Shown here: positions 8,486-24,537 of the stretch, piece after piece | Position numbering within the stretch: position 1 is the first letter of the stretch | How the letters are laid out: each line of letters begins with the position of its first letter | NCBI GenBank assembly: GCA_017960885.1 | Contig: JAGCYI010000176.1 | Span: forward strand, 27,047 to 91,046 | Reading direction: 5' to 3' | Length of the DNA stretch: 64,000 nt | DNA from: Bacteroidales bacterium | GTDB taxonomy: Bacteria > Bacteroidota > Bacteroidia > Bacteroidales > UBA3824 | Program-made: the position numbers and the translations under genes | The notes under the pieces: generated by a model | Seen by the model: the letters and a program-made list of their open reading frames with translations, nothing else | Database searches by the model: none | Told to the model about the DNA's origin: nothing

Positions 8486-8575
8486 CTTATCATATAATTG
8501 CTATGGGGTCCTTGTTGAGCTAAGGTACCATTGTTACTGATTTTAATAAAAACTCTTTTTTCTTCATTTTTATCA

Positions 8576-9184
8576 ATGTATAAACATTTTGCCAAACGTA
8601 TATTGGATTTTTTGTTTTCTTTAATGTCTATATTGTTGATAGGTTGGATTATAGGCATTGTAGCATTATGGCTTCATTTCGCCAACAAAGGGGCGGGTGC
8701 TTTTTTCCTTCAATCTCGTCCTGGGAAAAATGGTAAAATATTTAAGGTCATCAAATTTAAAACTATGACCGACGAAAAAGATGAAAATGGCAATCTTTTG
8801 CCCGATGAAAAACGTCTTACAAAAATAGGGAAATTTATCCGATCAACATCAATTGATGAGCTACCTCAGATAATAAACGTTTTGAAAGGAGATATGTCGT
8901 TGATAGGCCCGCGACCATTATTAGTACAATATCTACCTTTATATACTAAGGAACAAGCACGAAGGCATGAAGTTCGACCTGGAATTACAGGCTGGGCTCA
9001 GTGTCATGGTCGTAATGCTATTTCATGGACACAAAAATTTGAATTGGATGTTTGGTATGTCGACAATATTTCCTTTATTGTGGATATTAAAATATTTTTT
9101 CTGACGATAAAAAAAGTTTTCATGCGTGAAGGTATTTCTCAGGAGGGAAATGCCACAATGGAATTTTTTAACGGACATAATTAG
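8576..9184 (+). CDS. small monotopic phosphoglycosyl transferase (PglC/WcfS-like bacterial sugar transferase)
   Basis: Motifs [40 protein letters not shown] and GITGWAQ. The ATG at 8576 is preferred over the TTG at 8531. Confidence 0.85.
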
Positions 9185-9187
9185 GAT

Positions 9188-9772
9188 ATGTATTTATATG
9201 GTGCAAGTGGTCATGCAAAAGTGATTATAGATATTCTGTTGGCATGTGGTATTTCTATTGATGGGTTGATTGATGATAATCCAAACATCAATTCTTTATT
9301 AACCTATCCAGTATATCATAATAAGTTAGATTTGTCTCCTATTATTGTTAGTGTTGGGAATAATTATGTTCGCAAATCTATTGTGGAAAAACTATTCGGA
9401 GAATTTGGTAAGGCTATTCATCCCTCTGCAATTGTCTCTCCTAATGCCTTTATCGATATAGGAACAGTTGTAATGCCAGGGGCTATTGTTAATTCTGGAA
9501 CCTCGATTGGAAAGCATTGTATTTTAAATACTGGTGTTTCTATCGACCATGAATGTGTTGTTGAAGATTATGTACACATTTCACCTCATGCTACTTTATG
9601 TGGCAATGTCAAGGTCGGAGAGGGTTCTTGGATAGGTGCAGGGGCTGTTGTTATTCAGGGTGTTGAAATAGGCAAGTGGAGTCAAATTGGTGCTGGTTCG
9701 GTGGTAACAAAAAATATCCCCGACAATGTACTCGCTTATGGTAATAATTGCAAGATAATCAAAAAGATATAA
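9188..9772 (+). CDS. PglD/NeuD-family sugar N-acetyltransferase (left-handed beta-helix)
   Basis: N-terminal Rossmann-like LYGASGHAKVIIDIL followed by hexapeptide repeats (GKHCILNTGVSIDHECVVEDYVHISPHATLCGNVKVGEGSWIGAGAVV). Confidence 0.8.
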   Translation: MYLYGASGHAKVIIDILLACGISIDGLIDDNPNINSLLTYPVYHNKLDLSPIIVSVGNNYVRKSIVEKLFGEFGKAIHPSAIVSPNAFIDIGTVVMPGAIVNSGTSIGKHCILNTGVSIDHECVVEDYVHISPHATLCGNVKVGEGSWIGAGAVVIQGVEIGKWSQIGAGSVVTKNIPDNVLAYGNNCKIIKKI

Positions 9773-16492: not shown

Positions 16493-17734
16493 ATGCAAAA
16501 TCGCATCTATCTCTGCCTTGCCCACATGGGAGGCAGTGAAATGAAGTACATTCAGGAGGCTTTCGACACTAACTGGGTTGTGCCGCTTGGCCCTAATGTC
16601 AATGCCTTTGAAACCGACTTGGAAGTTTTTGTCGGTCAGAACAAAAAAGTTGTTGCGCTTACTACCGGCACTGCGGCGGTGCATTTAGCTTTGTTAGCTT
16701 GTGGAGTGCAACCCGGCGACGAGGTTATTGTGCAGTCGTTCACATTCTGCGCTTCTTCGCACCCTATAACATATTTGGGCGCTACACCTGTGTTTGTGGA
16801 TTCCGAACCCGACACTTGGAATATGGATCCTGTGCTTTTGAAGCAGGCTATTGTGGATCGAATTGCCAAAACCGGACGCAAACCAAAGGCTATTGTGCCT
16901 GTGTATCTCTATGGTATGCCTGCCAAAATTAATGAAATAATGGCAGTGGCTCGCGAGTTCGACATTCCTGTGGTGGAAGATGCTGCCGAAGGATTTGGAA
17001 GTTTGTACAACGGACAAGTTTGCGGCACATTTGGCAAATATGGTGTGCTGAGTTTTAATGGCAACAAGATGATTACCACATCTGGTGGTGGCGCTTTGGT
17101 GTGTCCCGACGAAAATTCCAAAAACGAGATTATGTTTTATGCAACGCAGGCTCGCGAGGCGTATCCGTATTATCAGCACGAAAAAATCGGATACAATTAT
17201 CGTATGAGCAACATTTGCGCTGGTATCGGTCGCGGTCAGATGGAGATTGTCAACGAGCATATCAACCATCACAAGCATCTCACTGCCTTGTACAAAAAAC
17301 TCTTGTCGGTAGTTGACGGTATCACCCTTCATGAAAATCCGTCTCCTGAAATCGACAGCAATTACTGGCTCAATACCATAATCCTTGATAATAATCTTCG
17401 TGTAAAAGGTGAAGATAAAGCCTATACACAGGCAGTTCAAGGTGCTGTTGGTGGTGCGGCAGGTGTTACTCATACCGCAAGGTCGTTGCATACCGATTTT
17501 GAACCCAACAACAATGTTGAGGCTATGCGCATGGCTTTAGACAAAGCCAACATCGAGTCGCGTCCGCTTTGGAAGCCTATGCACTTGCAGCCAGTATATA
17601 AGAATAATCCCGCTTATACCAATGGCGTGAGCGCTTCCTTGTTTAAATGCGGTCTTTGCCTACCATCGGGACCAATGGTGAGCGATGCCGATGTTGAGTA
17701 TATTGTGGATACTATGAAGAACGCGATTATTTAG
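16493..17734 (+). CDS. DegT/DnrJ/EryC1/StrS-family PLP-dependent sugar aminotransferase (PglE/WcfR-like)
   Basis: The opening RIYLCLAHMGGSEMKYIQEAFDTNWVVPLGPNV is typical of this family. FNGNKMITTSGGGAL contains the PLP lysine. Confidence 0.85.
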   Translation: MQNRIYLCLAHMGGSEMKYIQEAFDTNWVVPLGPNVNAFETDLEVFVGQNKKVVALTTGTAAVHLALLACGVQPGDEVIVQSFTFCASSHPITYLGATPVFVDSEPDTWNMDPVLLKQAIVDRIAKTGRKPKAIVPVYLYGMPAKINEIMAVAREFDIPVVEDAAEGFGSLYNGQVCGTFGKYGVLSFNGNKMITTSGGGALVCPDENSKNEIMFYATQAREAYPYYQHEKIGYNYRMSNICAGIGRGQMEIVNEHINHHKHLTALYKKLLSVVDGITLHENPSPEIDSNYWLNTIILDNNLRVKGEDKAYTQAVQGAVGGAAGVTHTARSLHTDFEPNNNVEAMRMALDKANIESRPLWKPMHLQPVYKNNPAYTNGVSASLFKCGLCLPSGPMVSDADVEYIVDTMKNAII

Positions 17735-17740
17735 TTTGCT

Positions 17741-18112
17741 ATGACCAATCAAGAAATCGGCATCCTCGGTGAAAATGCTGCCGCAGATCTTCTACAACAG
17801 AAAGGTTACACTATCTTAGAACGCAACTACCATGTTGGTCATCTTGAAGTGGATATTATAGCGTTTAAAGATGGTATTATTGTTTTCGTTGAGGTAAAAA
17901 CTCGCTCTGCCGACTACCTTGTTGCTCCGCAGGAGGCTGTGAACTATCGCAAACAGAGCCTTATTATTAATGCTGCAAACGGATATATCCGCAAACACAA
18001 ACGTACTGAGGAGGCACGCCTTGATGTTATAACTGTGCTACACAAAGGTGGTAAGATTACCAGTGTGTCCCATATTGAGAACGCTTATTATCCAACCGTT
18101 AGAACCCATTGA
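17741..18112 (+). CDS. yraN: YraN-family (UPF0102) endonuclease-like protein
   Basis: GENAAADLLQQKGYTILERNYHVGHLEVDIIAFKDGIIVFVEVKTR is the YraN signature. Confidence 0.8.
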   Translation: MTNQEIGILGENAAADLLQQKGYTILERNYHVGHLEVDIIAFKDGIIVFVEVKTRSADYLVAPQEAVNYRKQSLIINAANGYIRKHKRTEEARLDVITVLHKGGKITSVSHIENAYYPTVRTH

Positions 18113-18945
18113 TTGATTTTAATTCTATGCTTACGCTAATGTATATAACCAATTCGCCTTCTGTTGCCGAAATTGCGCAACGATATGGTGTGGATTGGAT
18201 TTTTGTAGACCTTGAGACTCTCGGAAAAGAAGAGCGACAGAGGGATATGAATACTGTAAAGTCGCATCATACGGTCAACGACATTTCTGCCATTAAACCG
18301 ATTTTAACCACCTCAAAATTGCTTGTGAGGGTCAACCCAATTCACGACGGGTCAAGAGCTGAAATCGAAGATGTTATTAGCCGAGGTGCTGATATCATTA
18401 TGCTGCCAATGTGGAAAACCGTGCAGAATGTAGTTGATTTCCTGAGCTTTGTTGGTGGACGATGCAAAACACTTCTGCTGTTGGAAACCAAGGAGGCTTG
18501 CGAGGTGTTAGACGATGTTTTAAAAATTGACGGTATTGACTTTATACATATAGGACTCAACGACTTACATTTGAGTTACAACCTTTCGTTTATGTTTGAG
18601 CCGCTCTCAAACGGTTTGGTTGATGTTCTTTGCAACAAAATTGCACAGAAAGGTATTCCTTACGGTTTTGGTGGTATCGCCCGAATCGGAGAGGGTCTTA
18701 TCCCTGCCGAAATGCTTTTGATCGAACATTGTAGGTTGAATTCTTCAATGGCCATTTTGTCGCGAAGCTTCTGTAACACTTCTATTTACAGCTCCATTAA
18801 CGATATTGAGGATATTTTTGCTAACAATATGAAAAAACTCCGTGATTTTGAGGGGGTGGCAATGTCGCTCTCCGCTCACGACATGGCTTTTAATCATAAT
18901 AGGATTGTTGAATGTGTTAAAAGAGTAATTAGCGAAAAACTATGA
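18109..18945 (+). CDS. HpcH/HpaI aldolase / citrate-lyase-beta family protein
   Basis: Motifs GVDWIFVDLE, LVRVN, MLPMW, LLLLETKEA and IHIGLNDL fit the HpcH/HpaI TIM-barrel pattern. The start is either TTG 18109 (overlapping the yraN stop) or ATG 18127. Confidence 0.6.
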   Translation: MIDFNSMLTLMYITNSPSVAEIAQRYGVDWIFVDLETLGKEERQRDMNTVKSHHTVNDISAIKPILTTSKLLVRVNPIHDGSRAEIEDVISRGADIIMLPMWKTVQNVVDFLSFVGGRCKTLLLLETKEACEVLDDVLKIDGIDFIHIGLNDLHLSYNLSFMFEPLSNGLVDVLCNKIAQKGIPYGFGGIARIGEGLIPAEMLLIEHCRLNSSMAILSRSFCNTSIYSSINDIEDIFANNMKKLRDFEGVAMSLSAHDMAFNHNRIVECVKRVISEKL

Positions 18946-20147
18946 ACCAAAGTCAGTTGTCAGTTTTATCCGCTAAATATGGGTCGGCATTTTACTTGCT
19001 TGATACCCAGCAGTTTAAAAAAAATTTTATTGAACTGAAAAGCGCTTTTGCCACTATTTATCCAAATACCAATATAGCATATTCATACAAAACCAACTAT
19101 ATACCAGCACTTTGCAGGATTGTTGATGAGTTGGGAGGATTGGCTGAGGTGGTTTCTGATATGGAACTCAACATAGCTCGCAAAGTAGGAGTGAAGCCCT
19201 ATAATATTATTTGGAACGGTCCGTACAAGAATCCTCAAGAATTTGAAAACCTTCTCTTAGAGGGCGGACAAGTAAATTTGGATTCGTTTTATGAGACTGA
19301 ACTGTTAAAAACTATCGCTAAAAATCATCCCGAAAAGATTCTGAACGTTGGCGTAAGAGTAAACTTCGCTATCAACGACAATACAGTTTCGCGATTTGGG
19401 TTTGATGTGGAATCAAAAGAGTTTTTTGATACATTAAGCGCTATCAATCAATTAGATAATGTAAAACTTTTGGGCATTCAGTGTCATTATGCCACTCGAC
19501 GTCTTGAAACATGGCGTCCACGTGCCGAAAAAATGCTCGAACTTTTAGACAGAATCGGTATCGTTCCTCCTCGTATTGATTTGGGTGGAGGTCTCTACGG
19601 TAAGATTCACGAGAGTTTGAAAAAACAGTTCGACGCTTATATTCCTACATATCAAGAATATGCCGAATCTGTGGCTCCCCTTTTTGCCGAAAAGTTCGGT
19701 TCTATGCCAAATCCGCCTTTGTTGCTTATCGAACCTGGTAGCGCCTTGGTGGGCGATTGTATGAGTTTTGTAGCCAAGGTGGTGTCTATTAAGAATATAC
19801 GGGGACAATATTTTGCAACACTCCTCGGAAGTTCGCATAATATTAATATTTCGGGCAAGAATCCGCCGCTTACTGTGTATCCGCTTGCAAATGAGCGTTT
19901 TGAATATGATAATCTCAATTTCGTAGGCTACACTTGTATCGAAAGCGACGTGCTCTACCGTGGTTTCAACGGACTTTTGGGCGTGGGCGACTTTGTTGAG
20001 TTTGCCAACGCTGGTTCGTATTCGGTGGTTTTAAAACCGCCGTTTATCCTTCCTAACTTCCCTGTTTTGGACATCAGCGGCGACAATCCGGCTTTGATTA
20101 AACGTCAGGAGTGTTTCGACGATATTTTCCGCACATATAGTTTCTAA
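18942..20147 (+). CDS. fold-III PLP-dependent decarboxylase (Orn/DAP/Arg decarboxylase family 2)
   Basis: YAFYLLD..., IAYSYKTNY (PLP-Lys region), DLGGGL, EPGSALV and CIESD fit the DAP/ornithine decarboxylase layout. The start overlaps the upstream stop (ATGA). Confidence 0.75.
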   Translation: MNQSQLSVLSAKYGSAFYLLDTQQFKKNFIELKSAFATIYPNTNIAYSYKTNYIPALCRIVDELGGLAEVVSDMELNIARKVGVKPYNIIWNGPYKNPQEFENLLLEGGQVNLDSFYETELLKTIAKNHPEKILNVGVRVNFAINDNTVSRFGFDVESKEFFDTLSAINQLDNVKLLGIQCHYATRRLETWRPRAEKMLELLDRIGIVPPRIDLGGGLYGKIHESLKKQFDAYIPTYQEYAESVAPLFAEKFGSMPNPPLLLIEPGSALVGDCMSFVAKVVSIKNIRGQYFATLLGSSHNINISGKNPPLTVYPLANERFEYDNLNFVGYTCIESDVLYRGFNGLLGVGDFVEFANAGSYSVVLKPPFILPNFPVLDISGDNPALIKRQECFDDIFRTYSF

Positions 20148-20152
20148 GGCTG

Positions 20153-20830
20153 ATGTTCAGCAATTTCCTCAAACGTTTTTTTGACATTGTATCCTGTTCG
20201 GTGGCAACGGTTTTGTTGTTGCCGGTGTGGATTTTTGTCGCTATTGCAATTAAAATAGACTCTAAGGGTCCTATTTTGTTTGCGCAAGGTCGCCGTACCA
20301 AGGGTGGAAAGGTGTTTAAAATGCTAAAATTTCGCTCTATGGTGGTTAATGCCGAAAATATTGGCACGGGTCTTTTCTCTTACGACAACGACCCACGTGT
20401 TACTCGTGTGGGTAAGTTCCTTAGAAAGACAAGTATCGACGAACTCCCTCAACTACTGAACGTTATCAAAGGCGACATCTCTATTGTGGGTCCCCGTCCG
20501 TGCGTAACATACGAACTCGGCGATTTTGACACCCTCAACAAAAAATACAAAAAGCGTTTTGAAGTGAAGGGTGGCATCACTGGTCTTGCCCAAGTTAAGG
20601 GTCGCAACGAAAACTCTTGGGATGAGAAAGTTACGCTCGACAACCAATATGTTGACCGTTATAAATCCGAAGGTTTTTGGCTCGATATAAAAATAATGTG
20701 GTGGACTCTTTTTAAGGTTTTTACTAAGAAAAATATCAATGAGTCAAAGATTTCCGAAGATATGTCCGACATTGAATCGGCTGAACTTTCCGACGAAGAG
20801 GTAAAAAGAATTGCACATTTCCCCGATTAA
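20153..20830 (+). CDS. second small phosphoglycosyl transferase (bacterial sugar transferase family)
   Basis: Motifs KRFFDIVSCS, FKMLKFRSM, IDELPQLLNVIKGDISIVGPRP and GITGLAQ. It has an acidic C-terminal tail. Confidence 0.85.
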   Translation: MFSNFLKRFFDIVSCSVATVLLLPVWIFVAIAIKIDSKGPILFAQGRRTKGGKVFKMLKFRSMVVNAENIGTGLFSYDNDPRVTRVGKFLRKTSIDELPQLLNVIKGDISIVGPRPCVTYELGDFDTLNKKYKKRFEVKGGITGLAQVKGRNENSWDEKVTLDNQYVDRYKSEGFWLDIKIMWWTLFKVFTKKNINESKISEDMSDIESAELSDEEVKRIAHFPD

Positions 20831-20845
20831 TTCTATTTTTGCGGT

Positions 20846-21772
20846 ATGGAAAACAAAGAATCTAACCGCCTAATATGGCTTAATGGAGACATTATCAATG
20901 TCAACGACGCAAAAATCAATGTTTTGTCGCCGTCGGCTCAGTTTGGACTTAATGTTTTTGAAGGTATACGCTGCTATTGGAGTCAGGAACAAAACCAACT
21001 CTATGCGTTTAGACTTAAAGAACATTACCACAGACTTTTACAGTCGGTGCACCTTTTGCAAATAGAAGAAAAATATACCCTTGATGATTTGCAAGCGGCT
21101 TTTATTCAGGTAATTAAGGCCAACAACTATCGTGAGGATATAGCAGTTCGTCAAACCATTTTTGTTGACGGTTTCGGCACTTGGCATTCGAGCGAGAGAG
21201 CAGGTATGTTTGTATCTCCAATTGCAAAGGCAAAAACCAATCCCGAATACAACAAAAAGGGCTTAAACTGTTGCGTAAGTTCTTGGCGCAGAATAAGCGA
21301 CAATGTGCTTTCGCCACGTATCAAGTGCGGCGCCAACTATATCAACAGCCGTATGGCTCAACGTGAGGCACTTCGCAATGGCTACGACACTACCATTTTT
21401 CTCAACGAATTTGGCAAGGTGTCCGAAGGTCCCGGTTCGTGCTTGTTTATAGTTAAAAACGGACGCCTTATCACTCCGATGTTTACCGACAGCGTATTGG
21501 AGAGCATCACCCGCGATACAATTCTCATTCTTGCCCGCGAAAACGGCATTGAAACTGTTGAGCGCACTATCGACCGTACCGAACTCTACACTGCCGACGA
21601 GGCGTTTCTCTGCGGTTCGGCTATGGAGATAACTCCGGTGGTTTCGGTTGATAAGTATTTGATTAACAATGGCATGGAGGGCGAAATGACCCACAGTCTG
21701 CATTTGAAATATCTTGAATGTGTTTGTGGTGGAAATCCCTTGCACACCGATTGGCTAACACCTATTTATTAG
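20846..21772 (+). CDS. class IV (branched-chain/D-amino-acid type) aminotransferase
   Basis: LNGDIINVNDAKINVLSPSAQFGLNVFEGIRCYW together with IKCGANYINS (Lys region) and EGPGSCLF fits IlvE-like fold-type IV enzymes. Confidence 0.8.
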   Translation: MENKESNRLIWLNGDIINVNDAKINVLSPSAQFGLNVFEGIRCYWSQEQNQLYAFRLKEHYHRLLQSVHLLQIEEKYTLDDLQAAFIQVIKANNYREDIAVRQTIFVDGFGTWHSSERAGMFVSPIAKAKTNPEYNKKGLNCCVSSWRRISDNVLSPRIKCGANYINSRMAQREALRNGYDTTIFLNEFGKVSEGPGSCLFIVKNGRLITPMFTDSVLESITRDTILILARENGIETVERTIDRTELYTADEAFLCGSAMEITPVVSVDKYLINNGMEGEMTHSLHLKYLECVCGGNPLHTDWLTPIY

Positions 21773-21773
21773 T

Positions 21774-22538
21774 ATGTCTGAGGAGTTCAGCAACAACATG
21801 GTTTCGGTAATCATGCCTGTTTACAATGCGGCTAAATATCTTGAAACTTCGTTGTTGTCGATTGTAAACCAAACATATAAGGATTGGGAACTGGTTTTGG
21901 TAGATGACTGTTCCTCAGATAGTTCGCCAGATATTATAGCAAAATTTAAATCACAGCATCCAAACATTATCTACCATCGTTTGGATCAGAACCAAGGCGC
22001 AGCCGTTGCAAGAAATACCGCTCTCAATATAGCCAAGGGCAGGTTTGTGGCTTTTTTGGATAGCGACGATATTTGGGAATCGCAAAAACTCGAATGTCAG
22101 ATGGCGTTCATGCTTGAAAACAATGCTTTTGCCTCCTGCACCGCTTCCGACACTATCGACGACGATGGTAATTCTCTTGGCAAGGTTCGTAATGTGATTG
22201 ATGTTATCGACTATAAGTTCCTGCTGCACAATACTATGGTGTCTACTTCAACGGTAATGGTAGATAGAAACAAGTCAGGCAGATTTCAGATGCCGCTCAT
22301 GCGTTCGGGTCAGGATTACGCCACTTGGCTTATGCTTATGCGCAACGGGAATGTTTTTAGAGGTATCAACCAAGTGCTTACACATTATCGCGTTAGCAAA
22401 AAATCATTGTCGTCAAATAAGTTAGACAGCCTTCGGCAAATATATCAGATTCAAACCCAGTTTGAAAACATTGGCAGAATATCAGCCTTGGTAAATACTG
22501 GTTGTTTTGCTTTTAACGCTCTGAAAAAGAGGATTTAA
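21774..22538 (+). CDS. glycosyltransferase family 2
   Basis: VSVIMPVYNAAKYLETSLLSIVNQTY, VDDCSSD and FLDSDD (DxD). Confidence 0.85.
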   Translation: MSEEFSNNMVSVIMPVYNAAKYLETSLLSIVNQTYKDWELVLVDDCSSDSSPDIIAKFKSQHPNIIYHRLDQNQGAAVARNTALNIAKGRFVAFLDSDDIWESQKLECQMAFMLENNAFASCTASDTIDDDGNSLGKVRNVIDVIDYKFLLHNTMVSTSTVMVDRNKSGRFQMPLMRSGQDYATWLMLMRNGNVFRGINQVLTHYRVSKKSLSSNKLDSLRQIYQIQTQFENIGRISALVNTGCFAFNALKKRI

Positions 22539-22548
22539 CTCCATCTTT

Positions 22549-23700
22549 ATGAAAATTCTTCTCATCCCAATGTCGGCAATTGCCGAAACAGCCGGCCCGG
22601 TGTCGCGGTGCAGAAGAATTACCGAAGCACTTGCAGAGGCGGGCGCTGGGGTTGCCACTTGTATGGCTGAGGATGTCAACTTTAAGGCGGTTAACAGGGT
22701 ACGGAATTATTTTTTGGACATTCCAATGCCGTTTGGACTGCCGGCTTTTATTGCAAAACGCACTTTCCCCATTGCTCAGAAACTCGGTATCACATCTCGC
22801 AAAACTGTTTCAAGTTTCGACGATGTGCTGCGCATTACAGGCAATCTCGATTATAACTATCTGAAAAATAGCGTGCAAAGTATTCGTCACGCTATTCGCG
22901 ATTTTAATCCTGATATTGTTTACTCCGAGTTTAATATTTCGGCTTTTATAGCCGCCATAGTTGAAGATAAAAAGATTTGTGCCACAGTAAGTTATCCTAC
23001 CCAGTACGGATATGCGCACAATTCACGATATGCAACAGGGCTGAACCGCCTGCTCAAGGATTTTGGACTTGACAGTGTGGATTCAGCCCTTCAACTTTTT
23101 GACTGGGCTGATATCAAAATCTGTCCGAGTATCAGAGAGTTGGAACCTATCAATGGCAATGTGATATTCTGCGGCGCATTGAAAAATGTATTGCCGAAGG
23201 AGTGCACCCGCAACAAGATCCTTGTATATATGGGCAACGGAACTGTACCTGCCTCCAAAATGTTGAAGGTGGTTTCCAAGGCTTTTGCCGATAGCGGTTA
23301 CGAGGTTTTTATCGCCTCTAAGTATTTGGACCAAAAGGATATAGATAATATTCACATTGCACCTCGTTGGGATTTTGATTCGCTGCTCAACGAATCGGTC
23401 TGCTTTATCAACCATGGCGGACAGAACAGCATTTGCGACGGTCTGCAACACGGTGTTCCTCAGATAGTTGTGCCGGGAAAGGTGTTTGAGCGCAAGTACA
23501 ATGCCCAATCGCTTGTGGATAACAACGCAGGTGTGTGTCTCAACTATGAGGATTTCAATGCTGATACTCTCCGCAAAACTGCCGAACGGATTATTAACAG
23601 TGCAGAAATGCGTACCAACGCCCTTGCTCTTGGTCAAAAACTGTCCCTCGCCGGCGGTGTAGACCTTGTAGTAAAAACTCTTCTTGATTATACTAACTAA
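22549..23700 (+). CDS. GT1-family (MGT/UDP-glycosyltransferase-like) glycosyltransferase
   Basis: The C-terminal INHGGQNSICDGLQHGVPQIVVPGKVFERKYNAQ matches the GT1 donor-binding motif. Confidence 0.7.
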   Translation: MKILLIPMSAIAETAGPVSRCRRITEALAEAGAGVATCMAEDVNFKAVNRVRNYFLDIPMPFGLPAFIAKRTFPIAQKLGITSRKTVSSFDDVLRITGNLDYNYLKNSVQSIRHAIRDFNPDIVYSEFNISAFIAAIVEDKKICATVSYPTQYGYAHNSRYATGLNRLLKDFGLDSVDSALQLFDWADIKICPSIRELEPINGNVIFCGALKNVLPKECTRNKILVYMGNGTVPASKMLKVVSKAFADSGYEVFIASKYLDQKDIDNIHIAPRWDFDSLLNESVCFINHGGQNSICDGLQHGVPQIVVPGKVFERKYNAQSLVDNNAGVCLNYEDFNADTLRKTAERIINSAEMRTNALALGQKLSLAGGVDLVVKTLLDYTN

Positions 23701-23711
23701 AAATCAATATT

Positions 23712-24482
23712 TTGGTATACGATTTTGTATTTGTAGTATTGGTTTACCGCAACACCAAAGATTTGGAAGATTTTTTCAAGTGTTTGAAAACTCCTAATTC
23801 CAAGGTGTTGGTGGTGAATAGTTTTTATGATGAGGATTCGCGGGCTAAGTTCGAGGCTATTGCGCTTGCCAACCACGCCGATTTTCTCAATGTGGAAAAC
23901 AAGGGCTATGGCTATGGCAACAACCGTGGCTGCGAGTATGCTTTAAATAATTATCAGTTCCGCTATCTGATTATCTCCAATGCCGACATCGAAATTCAAA
24001 ATCTTGATGTCAACCAATTGTCGTCTAAGCATATCACTGCACCGAAGATTTTAACTCTGAAAGGAAAAAACCAGAATCCATATCTGCCATTTTTTTCTAA
24101 ACTATATGAAAAAATAAAATATTTCTTTATCAAACGCCGCAGTCGCTTGATAATATTTTGTTGGATTTTTAGTAGATTGTGTCGTGAGATATTTCTTCTT
24201 TTCCACAAAAAAGGCTATGTATTTGCGGCTCACGGAGCCTTTTTTATTATGCCATTTAACGTTTTAAAAGAGTTGTTTCCTCTCTACAACGAAAAAATGT
24301 TCCTCTTTGTAGAGGAGGCGCATTTGGCAATGCTGGCTCGTGAGAAGGGTATAAAAATTTATTATGATTCGTCGATTGTTATCAATCACAAGGAAGACGG
24401 CAGTGTTTCGTTTTTGAACAACGAAAATGAGATTCAGAACGAATCTTACATTGAGTTTTATAATACGTGGTTTAAAAAATAA
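23712..24482 (+). CDS. glycosyltransferase family 2 (rhamnosyltransferase-like subgroup)
   Basis: FVVLVYRNTKDLEDFF, NKGYGYGNNRG and ISNADIE. It has a TTG start and is the last gene of the operon. Confidence 0.65.
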   Translation: MVYDFVFVVLVYRNTKDLEDFFKCLKTPNSKVLVVNSFYDEDSRAKFEAIALANHADFLNVENKGYGYGNNRGCEYALNNYQFRYLIISNADIEIQNLDVNQLSSKHITAPKILTLKGKNQNPYLPFFSKLYEKIKYFFIKRRSRLIIFCWIFSRLCREIFLLFHKKGYVFAAHGAFFIMPFNVLKELFPLYNEKMFLFVEEAHLAMLAREKGIKIYYDSSIVINHKEDGSVSFLNNENEIQNESYIEFYNTWFKK

Positions 24483-24500
24483 GTTTTGTTTCTTTATAAA

Positions 24501-24537
24501 AAAATCCCCGGGGAGTGTTTCCTCGGGGATTTTTGTT
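24501..24537 (+). terminator. rho-independent terminator closing the capsule operon
   Basis: In aaaatccccg-gggagtgtttcct-cggggatttt, the stem atccccg/cggggat is followed by a T run. Confidence 0.7.

What the first reader, a model, noticed from the sequence alone, without database searches (positions are those of the whole stretch)
18109..21772. Aldolase - PLP decarboxylase - (second initiating transferase) - class IV aminotransferase module of unknown product
Four translationally packed genes encode an HpcH/HpaI-family pyruvate-aldolase-type TIM barrel, a fold-III Orn/DAP-type decarboxylase, a second PglC-like phosphoglycosyl transferase and an IlvE-like class IV aminotransferase. GT2, GT1 and GT2 genes follow. 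The three enzymes form a chemically coherent cascade. Aldol addition of pyruvate to an aldehyde would give a 4-hydroxy-2-oxo acid. Transamination would give a 4-hydroxy amino acid. Decarboxylation would give an amino alcohol. The product could be a non-sugar substituent of the glycan. I know of no characterised capsule pathway with this trio. The second initiating transferase also implies that a second lipid-linked glycan is started from the same operon.
Basis: inference. Interest (0 to 1): 0.6.

Follow-up and report, generated by a model that had tools for sequence, protein, structure and literature searches.

The report
Pyruvate-aldolase sugar-tailoring cassette with own primer
The aldolase-like, decarboxylase, priming-transferase and aminotransferase genes are one conserved, horizontally spread cassette of gut bacteria that most likely builds an unusual amine-bearing first sugar for a surface polysaccharide, by chemistry no paper I found describes.

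Summary
Four tightly packed genes (ALD, DEC, PGT2, AT4) are followed by three glycosyltransferase genes and a strong terminator, at the tail of a Bacteroidales capsule locus.

- **Not housekeeping copies.** The same genome has a true lysA and a true ilvE elsewhere.
- **Conserved block.** ALD-DEC-PGT-AT4-GT2 recurs in the same order in 30 of 65 long ALD loci, at 50-75% identity. Carriers include Clostridia, Prevotella, a Bacteroides MAG, Bacilli and Acholeplasmatales.
- **Core pair.** ALD sits beside a small priming transferase in 67 of 76 loci.
- **Alternative tailoring.** Loci without AT4/DEC carry a 2-hydroxyacid dehydrogenase instead (19 of 35, against 0 of 30). So ALD's product is a 2-oxo acid that is either aminated or reduced.
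- **Natural fusions.** ALD is found fused to DEC, to each dehydrogenase type, to the priming transferase, to a GT4 and to a PglF-type dehydratase domain.

A free amino-alcohol substituent is less likely, because no activating or ligating enzyme is conserved. I favour a pyruvate-derived side chain built on the priming sugar itself. That step is inferred, not shown. This scan had already noted the same cassette on other DNA. I found no publication on it.

The parts
17741..18112 (+). YraN/UPF0102 gene at the seam between the first glycan module and the cassette. It is not part of the conserved cassette.
   Evidence: PF02021 91.5 bits. It is absent from the other 79 ALD loci.
18127..18945 (+). ALD: divergent HpcH/HpaI-type (pyruvate-kinase-like TIM barrel) enzyme, the proposed pyruvate C-C bond-forming step. 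The ORF can also be read from TTG 18109.
   Evidence: PF03328 49.9 bits. AF2 model pLDDT 93. Foldseek top hits are YfaU and HpaI. VIA Z 17-19.6 to the pyruvate kinase barrel, SbnG, GarL, HpcH and CitE-like enzymes. Glu126 and Asp152 are invariant and align with the YfaU metal ligands.
18942..20147 (+). DEC: fold-III PLP decarboxylase, a distinct paralogue of LysA
   Evidence: TIGR01048 140 bits against a cut-off of 298. Best PDB hits are FslC 96 bits, then LysA and BtrK. The Lys, His, GGG, EPGS and CxExD motifs are conserved in 34 homologues. ALD-DEC fusions are P0133 and P0135.
20153..20830 (+). PGT2: small monotopic phosphoglycosyl transferase, the cassette's own primer
   Evidence: PF02397 214 bits. 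It is equidistant from WbaP (133 bits) and PglC (127 bits). It is 59-75% identical among cassette loci, against 31-51% for ALD-adjacent PGTs in loci without the full cassette.
20846..21772 (+). AT4: class IV (BCAT-type) aminotransferase
   Evidence: NF005146 300 bits against a cut-off of 279. It scores 257 bits to BCAT 6gkr. The catalytic Lys and other motifs are conserved in 33 homologues. The genome's housekeeping ilvE_II is elsewhere.
21774..22538 (+). GT2a: TuaG-like GT2, the fifth conserved cassette member, probably adding the second sugar
   Evidence: NF047683 256 bits, below the cut-off of 400. A GT2-cluster gene lies in 27 of 30 cassette loci, usually directly after AT4 at 43-63% identity.
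22549..23700 (+). GT1-type (GT-B, MGT/EryCIII-like) glycosyltransferase, locus-specific
   Evidence: PF06722, PF04101 and PF00201 hits. It is absent from the nearest relative L003.
23712..24482 (+). 256-aa protein, probably a divergent GT2
   Evidence: No Pfam hit. It is 38-43% identical to cluster c30, whose member L006:12534-13367 hits PF00535 at 34 bits.
24500..24534 (+). Intrinsic-terminator-like hairpin closing the operon
   Evidence: 16-pair stem followed by a T run.

Best explanation
ALD, DEC, PGT2, AT4 and the following GT2 form one mobile 'special first sugar' cassette.

Proposed steps, all inferred from family chemistry and gene context:
1. ALD is a metal-dependent pyruvate-enolate enzyme of the HpcH/HpaI type. 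It joins C3 of pyruvate to a carbonyl and gives a 4-hydroxy-2-oxo-acid group.
2. AT4, a BCAT-type transaminase, converts the 2-oxo acid to an L-2-amino acid.
3. DEC removes the carboxylate and leaves a primary amine.
4. The acceptor carbonyl is most likely on the nucleotide-linked priming sugar. The best candidate is the UDP-4-keto-6-deoxy-HexNAc made by a PglF-type dehydratase encoded elsewhere in this genome. The product would then be a C-branched sugar with an aminoethyl-type side chain.
5. PGT2 loads that sugar onto undecaprenyl phosphate, and GT2a extends it.

Shown here: gene content, conserved synteny, fusions, mutually exclusive tailoring enzymes, intact catalytic motifs, and separate housekeeping lysA and ilvE.

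Not shown: every chemical step, and above all the identity of the acceptor.
For: **Synteny.** ALD-DEC-PGT-AT4(-GT2) has the same order in 30 loci across several phyla.

**ALD-PGT link.** The two are adjacent in 67 of 76 loci. PGT-ALD, PGT-GT4-ALD and GT4-ALD fusions exist.

**Tailoring.**
- No cassette locus (0 of 30) has a 2-hydroxyacid dehydrogenase, against 19 of 35 loci without AT4/DEC.
- ALD-DEC, ALD-Ldh_2 and ALD-2-Hacid_dh fusions exist.
- In the ALD tree, dehydrogenase-type loci are nested among AT4+DEC loci. L013 sits beside L005, and L010 beside L015.

**On-sugar reading.**
- No kinase, nucleotidyltransferase, ligase or carrier protein is conserved in the cassette.
- The two enzymes that must recognise the first sugar, PGT2 and GT2a, are co-inherited with AT4/DEC.
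- ALD is fused to a PglF catalytic domain (P0247). It is also fused to the TM + CoA_binding_3 module otherwise found on PglF and WbaP.
- A PglF-like gene lies within the 8-kb flanks in 11 of 30 cassette loci, directly upstream of ALD in nine.
- A PglF/CapD-type gene is present in 65 of 66 ALD genomes, against 79% of PGT-bearing background genomes.

**Enzyme integrity.** ALD metal ligands; DEC and AT4 motifs.

**Not housekeeping.** True lysA and ilvE lie elsewhere in the genome.

**Decarboxylase relatives.** DEC's nearest solved relatives, FslC and BtrK, decarboxylate amino acids that are already conjugated to a larger molecule.
Against: - AT4 scores above NCBI's ilvE equivalog cut-off and keeps the usual BCAT motifs. 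That fits a small aliphatic 2-oxo acid better than a bulky UDP-sugar.
- No PglF-type gene lies inside the window's own locus.
- Only 11 of 30 cassette loci and 3 of 35 others have one within 8 kb.
- Several ALD loci also carry a full PglE/PglD/PglC-like set, which would compete for the same keto-sugar.
- The PglF association is largely confounded. 79% of PGT-bearing genomes have such a gene anyway, and related genomes are not independent.
- HMMER aligns the YfaU catalytic Arg74 with ALD Asn76, not with the invariant Arg74.
- The HpaI His (DxEH) is not kept.
- Fold search cannot separate aldolase-type from CitE/SbnG-type chemistry.
- No C-branched sugar of this kind is known from any carrier organism.
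Confidence: 0.45

Rival explanations
1. ALD condenses pyruvate with a small free aldehyde. AT4 and DEC then give a free 4-hydroxy amino acid and an amino alcohol. Enzymes outside the cassette later attach this to the glycan as a non-sugar substituent.
For: - HpcH/HpaI aldolases normally use small aldehydes (family knowledge; PDB hits).
- AT4 passes the ilvE cut-offs and looks like an ordinary BCAT.
- Five cassette loci carry a TagD-like cytidylyltransferase and six a LicD transferase.
- The window's own locus has an IspD-like cytidylyltransferase and a LicD.
Against: - No kinase, ligase, cytidylyltransferase or carrier protein is conserved with the trio. Only PGT and GT2 are.
- This reading does not explain ALD's fusions to PGT, GT4, the PglF domain and the membrane/CoA_binding_3 module.
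- It does not explain why PGT sits between DEC and AT4 in every cassette.
Confidence: 0.25
2. The same chemistry, but after priming. PGT2 first loads an ordinary sugar phosphate onto undecaprenyl phosphate. ALD, AT4 and DEC then act on the lipid-linked sugar at the membrane.
For: PGT-ALD and TM/CoA_binding_3-ALD fusions place ALD at the membrane. Some loci have ALD, PGT and glycosyltransferases only, with no local carbonyl-forming enzyme.
Against: A carbonyl on the lipid-linked sugar would still need an oxidising enzyme, and none is conserved. Cassette PGTs form their own 59-75% identity group, as expected if they recognise a special donor. PglF-type enzymes share the same membrane module yet act on soluble UDP-sugars.
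Confidence: 0.12
3. ALD makes a 3-substituted pyruvate other than an aldol adduct. One example would be phosphonopyruvate, through PEP-mutase-like chemistry. AT4 and DEC would then give phosphonoalanine and 2-aminoethylphosphonate, or the sulfo analogues, for LicD-type transfer.
For: The superfamily is shared with PEP mutase. The same either/or logic (reduce, or transaminate and decarboxylate) applies to phosphonopyruvate (my own knowledge of phosphonate pathways). Ldh_2 includes sulfolactate dehydrogenases. A few cassette loci have a cytidylyltransferase and LicD.
Against: There is no PF13714 hit. No PEP mutase or isocitrate lyase appears among the listed Foldseek matches (ranks 1-50) or the top 50 VIA matches. 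The Glu/Asp ligand pattern is HpaI-like. LicD and cytidylyltransferase genes are present in only a minority of loci.
Confidence: 0.04
4. The genes are ordinary amino-acid-metabolism paralogues (lysA, ilvE and a catabolic aldolase) that merely lie inside a capsule operon.
For: AT4 passes the ilvE equivalog cut-off.
Against: True lysA (387 bits against 298) and ilvE_II (435 bits against 307) are elsewhere in the genome. DEC is far below the lysA cut-off. The block is syntenic across phyla, always in glycan loci.
Confidence: 0.02

Closest known systems
PglF-PglE-PglD-PglC initiation module (Campylobacter UDP-diNAcBac). The window has its own version: PGT1 8531-9184, PglD-like 9188-9772, DegT 16493-17734.
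   Same: A compact set of enzymes tailors a UDP-HexNAc-derived sugar and hands it to a dedicated small monotopic PGT. The membrane TM + CoA_binding_3 module of PglF is also found fused to ALD.
   Different: The tailoring enzymes come from other families. They are an HpcH-type TIM barrel, a fold-IV transaminase and a fold-III decarboxylase, in place of a fold-I sugar aminotransferase and an acetyltransferase. PGT2 scores only 127 bits to PglC, while PGT1 scores 260 bits.
Class II pyruvate aldolases HpaI, YfaU/RhmA and GarL
   Same: Same Pfam family and TIM-barrel fold. The Glu/Asp metal ligands are aligned.
   Different: Identity is 14-19%, and all equivalog scores are far below their cut-offs. 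ALD has DLET in place of DxEH. It carries a family-specific insert with invariant K40, R43, Q44 and H54, plus invariant GFGG and SR motifs. It occurs in glycan loci and is fused to PGT or PglF domains.
NIS-siderophore pairs of an HpcH-like enzyme with a fold-III decarboxylase (SbnG/SbnH, AcsB/AcsE, FslC)
   Same: An HpcH-fold enzyme co-occurs with an Orn/DAP-type decarboxylase that acts on an amino acid already attached to a larger molecule. FslC is DEC's best solved match, and SbnG is a top structural match of ALD.
   Different: There is no IucA/IucC synthetase here, and the context is glycan assembly. The SbnG/SbnH and AcsB/AcsE roles are from my own knowledge and were not tested here.
Biocatalytic aldolase + BCAT cascades to gamma-hydroxy-alpha-amino acids, and C-branched sugars such as yersiniose (YerE) or shewanellose
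   Same: The same reaction logic: pyruvate-type aldol addition and then transamination, or C-C branching at the 4-keto group of an NDP-sugar.
   Different: The cascades are man-made. YerE is ThDP-dependent. No natural pathway with this trio was found in the literature. These comparisons rest on recall, not on tests made here.

Membership tests
HpcH/HpaI class II aldolase family (PF03328) | Pfam model above its gathering score | tested here: met
   49.9 bits against a cut-off of 25.
HpcH/HpaI class II aldolase family (PF03328) | Pyruvate-kinase-like TIM barrel fold | tested here: met
   AF2 pLDDT 93. Foldseek E 2e-11 to YfaU and HpaI. VIA Z 18.6 to GarL, rmsd 2.9 over 200 residues.
HpcH/HpaI class II aldolase family (PF03328) | Glu and Asp divalent-metal ligands (YfaU E153 and D179) | tested here: met
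   ALD E126 (LETKE) and D152 (GLNDL) align with them and are invariant in 26 homologues.
HpcH/HpaI class II aldolase family (PF03328) | Catalytic Arg at the end of strand 3 (HpaI R70, YfaU R74) | tested here: inconclusive
   An invariant R74 ends strand 3. HMMER, however, aligns YfaU R74 with ALD N76. No structural superposition was available.
HpcH/HpaI class II aldolase family (PF03328) | DxEH motif (HpaI His45) | tested here: not met
   The window has D34-L-E36-T. Homologues have T, Y, D or E at that position.
Named aldolases and lyases RhmA, HpaI, GarL and CitE (NCBIfam equivalogs) | Score above the curated cut-off | tested here: not met
   17-32 bits against cut-offs of 369-443.
Diaminopimelate decarboxylase LysA (TIGR01048) | Score above the curated cut-off | tested here: not met
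   140 bits against 297.9. The genome's real lysA scores 387 bits.
Fold-III PLP decarboxylases (Orn/DAP/Arg type) | PLP-Lys, His, Gly-rich loop, EPG and CxExD catalytic motifs | tested here: met
   YSYKTNY, cH.A.R, GGG, EPGSA and TCIE.D are conserved in 34 homologues. PF02784 scores 88 bits.
Branched-chain aminotransferase IlvE, type I (NF005146 / TIGR01122) | Score above the curated cut-off, with the catalytic Lys | tested here: met
   300.2 against 279 and 282.3 against 245.6. PRIKCGANY is conserved. Membership is by sequence only. A housekeeping role is unlikely, since ilvE_II is present elsewhere.
Small monotopic phosphoglycosyl transferases (PglC-like, PF02397) | A Bac_transf domain alone in a protein of about 200 aa | tested here: met
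   213.6 bits over residues 7-190 of 225 aa.
PglC (diNAcBac-1-P transferase) specificity group | Close similarity to solved PglC | tested here: not met
   PGT2 scores 127 bits to 8g1n, against 260 bits for PGT1 of the same locus.
PEP mutase / isocitrate lyase family | PF13714 match or closest fold | tested here: inconclusive
   No Pfam hit. None appears among the listed Foldseek matches (ranks 1-50) or the top 50 VIA matches. Absence from a list does not exclude a relationship.

The most novel reading that the evidence does not exclude
ALD would be the founding member of a family of metal-dependent aldolase-type enzymes that form a C-C bond between pyruvate and a nucleotide-linked keto-sugar. 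This would create a previously unseen class of C-branched priming sugars in gut commensals. Their side chains would carry a 2-oxo-acid, hydroxy-acid, amino-acid or amine group, depending on which tailoring genes accompany ALD. The window's cassette would make the amine form.
Probability: 0.35. Interest if true: 0.85.

Novelty: new variant of a known kind. Interest (0 to 1): 0.62.

Why it matters
The ALD family is large: 1,439 clusters at 50% identity match at E <= 0.001. It sits at the very first steps of surface-polysaccharide assembly. Carriers include human and animal gut commensals such as Blautia, Roseburia, Faecalibacterium, Eubacterium, Anaerobutyricum, Prevotella and Bacteroides.

If the reading holds, it would define:
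- a new way of making sugars, by aldolase-type C-C branching on a glycan precursor;
- a modular either/or tailoring scheme (oxo, hydroxy, amino acid or amine);
- a new specificity class of priming transferases.

A cationic amine on the first sugar could affect immune recognition, as zwitterionic Bacteroides capsules do (my own knowledge). The pathway can be tested directly with five proteins and commercially available UDP-GlcNAc.

Tried and rejected
- I took contexts from the search for related loci instead.
- **Literature.** Searches for HpcH or aldolase together with phosphoglycosyl transferases, capsule or EPS loci found nothing relevant. One call failed on syntax (37). The O'Toole/Imperiali/Allen 2021 PGT network paper is not held, so I could not check whether it lists PGT-aldolase fusions.
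- **Housekeeping lysA/ilvE.** Rejected.
- **PEP-mutase or phosphonate route.** Not supported.
- **Fold search.** It could not separate aldolase-type from CitE/SbnG/pyruvate-kinase-type barrels. Z scores of 17-19.6 are tied.
- **PglF dependence.** 65 of 66 ALD genomes have such a gene, but 79% of PGT-bearing control genomes do too. The enrichment is suggestive only, and related genomes are not independent.
- **Local carbonyl-forming enzyme.** Not found in 'ALD-only' loci.
- **ESM Atlas.** It returned only 'aldolase/citrate lyase family' clusters.
- **Structure coordinates.** No model coordinates were available in the script box. So I could not superpose the catalytic Arg or inspect the pocket.

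Full report
**What is there**

The window starts with a NusG/UpxY-like gene (95-667). It then runs as one + strand glycan operon to a strong terminator at 24500-24534. The organism is a rumen-type Bacteroidales MAG. The locus is almost identical to JAEERW010000009, isolate Tb.RUG.368.

The finding's four genes are real and tightly packed:
- ALD, 18109/18127-18945
- DEC, 18942-20147
- PGT2, 20153-20830
- AT4, 20846-21772

Three further genes follow: a TuaG-like GT2, a GT1-type transferase and a 256-aa probable GT2. Pfam and NCBIfam confirm the family calls. ALD most likely starts at ATG 18127, since MLTLMYITN matches the N-termini of homologues.

**Not housekeeping copies**
- DEC scores 140 bits on the lysA model, whose cut-off is 298.
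- AT4 does pass the type I ilvE cut-offs.
- The same genome nevertheless carries a true lysA (387 bits) on contig C199 and a true ilvE_II (435 bits) on C214.
- DEC and AT4 keep all catalytic motifs across 33-34 homologues.
- ALD keeps the Glu/Asp metal ligands of YfaU and HpaI.

**A conserved, mobile cassette**

A scan of species-representative genomes gave 80 loci with ALD homologues.
- tblastn and ORF clustering show ALD-DEC-PGT-AT4, usually followed by the GT2, in the same order in 30 loci. Identities are 50-75%.
- Carriers include many Clostridia, Prevotella, a Bacteroides thetaiotaomicron MAG, Bacilli and Acholeplasmatales. A truncated Melainabacteria contig (L043) shows ALD-DEC-PGT up to its end.
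- ALD is rare within any one lineage. It was found in 6 of 401 sampled genomes of the window's order and in none of three species of the same genus. It was found in 2 of 301 sampled genomes of the order that holds Blautia. That pattern fits an accessory, horizontally moved block.
- The family is nevertheless large: 1,439 representative clusters at E <= 0.001.

**ALD and the primer**

ALD lies beside a small Bac_transf PGT in 67 of 76 loci. Natural fusions among the representative proteins:
- PGT-ALD, in five clusters
- PGT-GT4-ALD
- GT4-ALD
- ALD-DEC, in two clusters
- ALD-Ldh_2
- ALD-2-Hacid_dh, in two clusters
- ALD-PglF catalytic domain
- TM + CoA_binding_3-ALD, carrying the same N-terminal module as PglF/CapD dehydratases and WbaP-type PGTs

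PGT2 is therefore not an unrelated second initiating transferase. It is ALD's most constant partner. In the window, PGT1 (8531-9184) is clearly PglC-like at 260 bits. PGT2 is equidistant from PglC and WbaP.

**The product is a 2-oxo acid**
- None of the 30 cassette loci has a 2-hydroxyacid dehydrogenase.
- Of 35 long loci without AT4/DEC, 19 carry a D-2-hydroxyacid dehydrogenase or an Ldh_2 enzyme next to ALD or PGT.
- The ALD tree has two well-supported clades. All AT4+DEC loci fall in one of them. Dehydrogenase-type loci are nested there beside close AT4+DEC relatives, so the tailoring type has switched repeatedly on similar ALDs.
- Two loci have ALD-PGT-AT4 without DEC.

The simplest reading is that ALD makes an R-CH2-CO-COOH group. 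This group is left as it is, reduced, transaminated, or transaminated and decarboxylated.

**Where the side chain sits (inference)**

Arguments for a side chain built on the priming sugar:
- No kinase, nucleotidyltransferase, ligase or carrier protein is conserved with the trio. Only the PGT and the GT2 are. A free amino alcohol would have no conserved route onto the glycan. A C-C bond made directly on the priming sugar needs none.
- PGT2 and GT2a, which must recognise the first sugar, are co-inherited with AT4/DEC.
- The fusions to the PglF domain and the PglF-type membrane module point the same way.
- A PglF-like gene lies within the 8-kb flanks in 11 of 30 cassette loci, directly upstream of ALD in nine.
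- A PglF/CapD-type gene is present in 65 of 66 ALD genomes, including this one on contig C274.

These point to a UDP-4-keto-6-deoxy-HexNAc acceptor.

Caveats:
- 79% of PGT-bearing control genomes also have such a gene. The naive Fisher test gives 6e-5, but related genomes are not independent.
- AT4 looks like an ordinary BCAT.
- Several ALD loci also hold a full PglE/PglD/PglC set.
- Fold search ties ALD equally to aldolases, SbnG/CitE-type enzymes and the pyruvate kinase barrel.

**The window's locus**

The cassette sits at the tail of a composite locus. Upstream lie PGT1, a PglD-like gene, Wzx, a pyruvyl transferase, a Kdn-type cassette, a toxin-antitoxin pair and a DegT gene. A YraN gene marks the seam. 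GC rises from about 29-35% (2-12 kb) to 40-44% (16-24 kb). Two primers in one Bacteroidales locus is unusual. Whether both are used is open.

**Novelty**

I found no publication on this trio or on PGT-aldolase fusions. One key paper was not held. Earlier agents of this scan reported the same cassette on other DNA and reached similar readings. I read those notes after reaching mine. All chemistry remains untested.

Noticed in passing
window:18109-18130: The listed TTG start of ALD overlaps the YraN stop. Homologue N-termini (MLxLMYITN) fit ATG 18127, which leaves a 14-nt gap rather than translational overlap.
   Followed up: partly
window:1-24534: The capsule locus is compositionally mosaic. 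GC is about 29-35% from 2 to 12 kb and 40-44% from 16 to 24 kb. It holds two priming transferases (PGT1 is PglC-like, PGT2 is cassette-type) but only one Wzx, which suggests two modules joined at the YraN gene.
   Followed up: partly
window:1528-2286: An FGE-sulfatase-like (formylglycine-generating enzyme family) gene lies near the head of the capsule locus, an unusual neighbour for glycosyltransferases.
   Followed up: no
L060:7995-14624: A variant locus reads ALD, PIG-L-type de-N-acetylase, PGT, DEC-like (41% identity), PylC-like ATP-grasp ligase, GT4, 2-hydroxyacid dehydrogenase. Here the decarboxylase may act on an amino acid ligated to a de-acetylated amino sugar.
   Followed up: no
L009:538-3238 and L010:1318-8837: Some Clostridia carry two ALD copies in one locus. 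At least one copy is fused to the TM + CoA_binding_3 membrane module, and in L010 both are.
   Followed up: partly
L051 (CAVGWF010000094.1, 5.5 kb): A contig labelled Escherichia coli carries an ALD-PGT-dehydrogenase arrangement typical of Clostridia. It is probably a binning contaminant.
   Followed up: no
L005:3247-4503: In Eubacterium callanderi FD, a weak IS605 OrfB/TnpB-like gene lies about 3.5 kb upstream of the cassette, which may bear on its mobility.
   Followed up: no
L021, L022, L024, L047, L028: Several cassette loci continue with a TagD-like cytidylyltransferase, a FrhB/4Fe-4S protein and a LicD transferase. This recurring sub-module may add a phospho-alcohol to the same glycan.
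   Followed up: no
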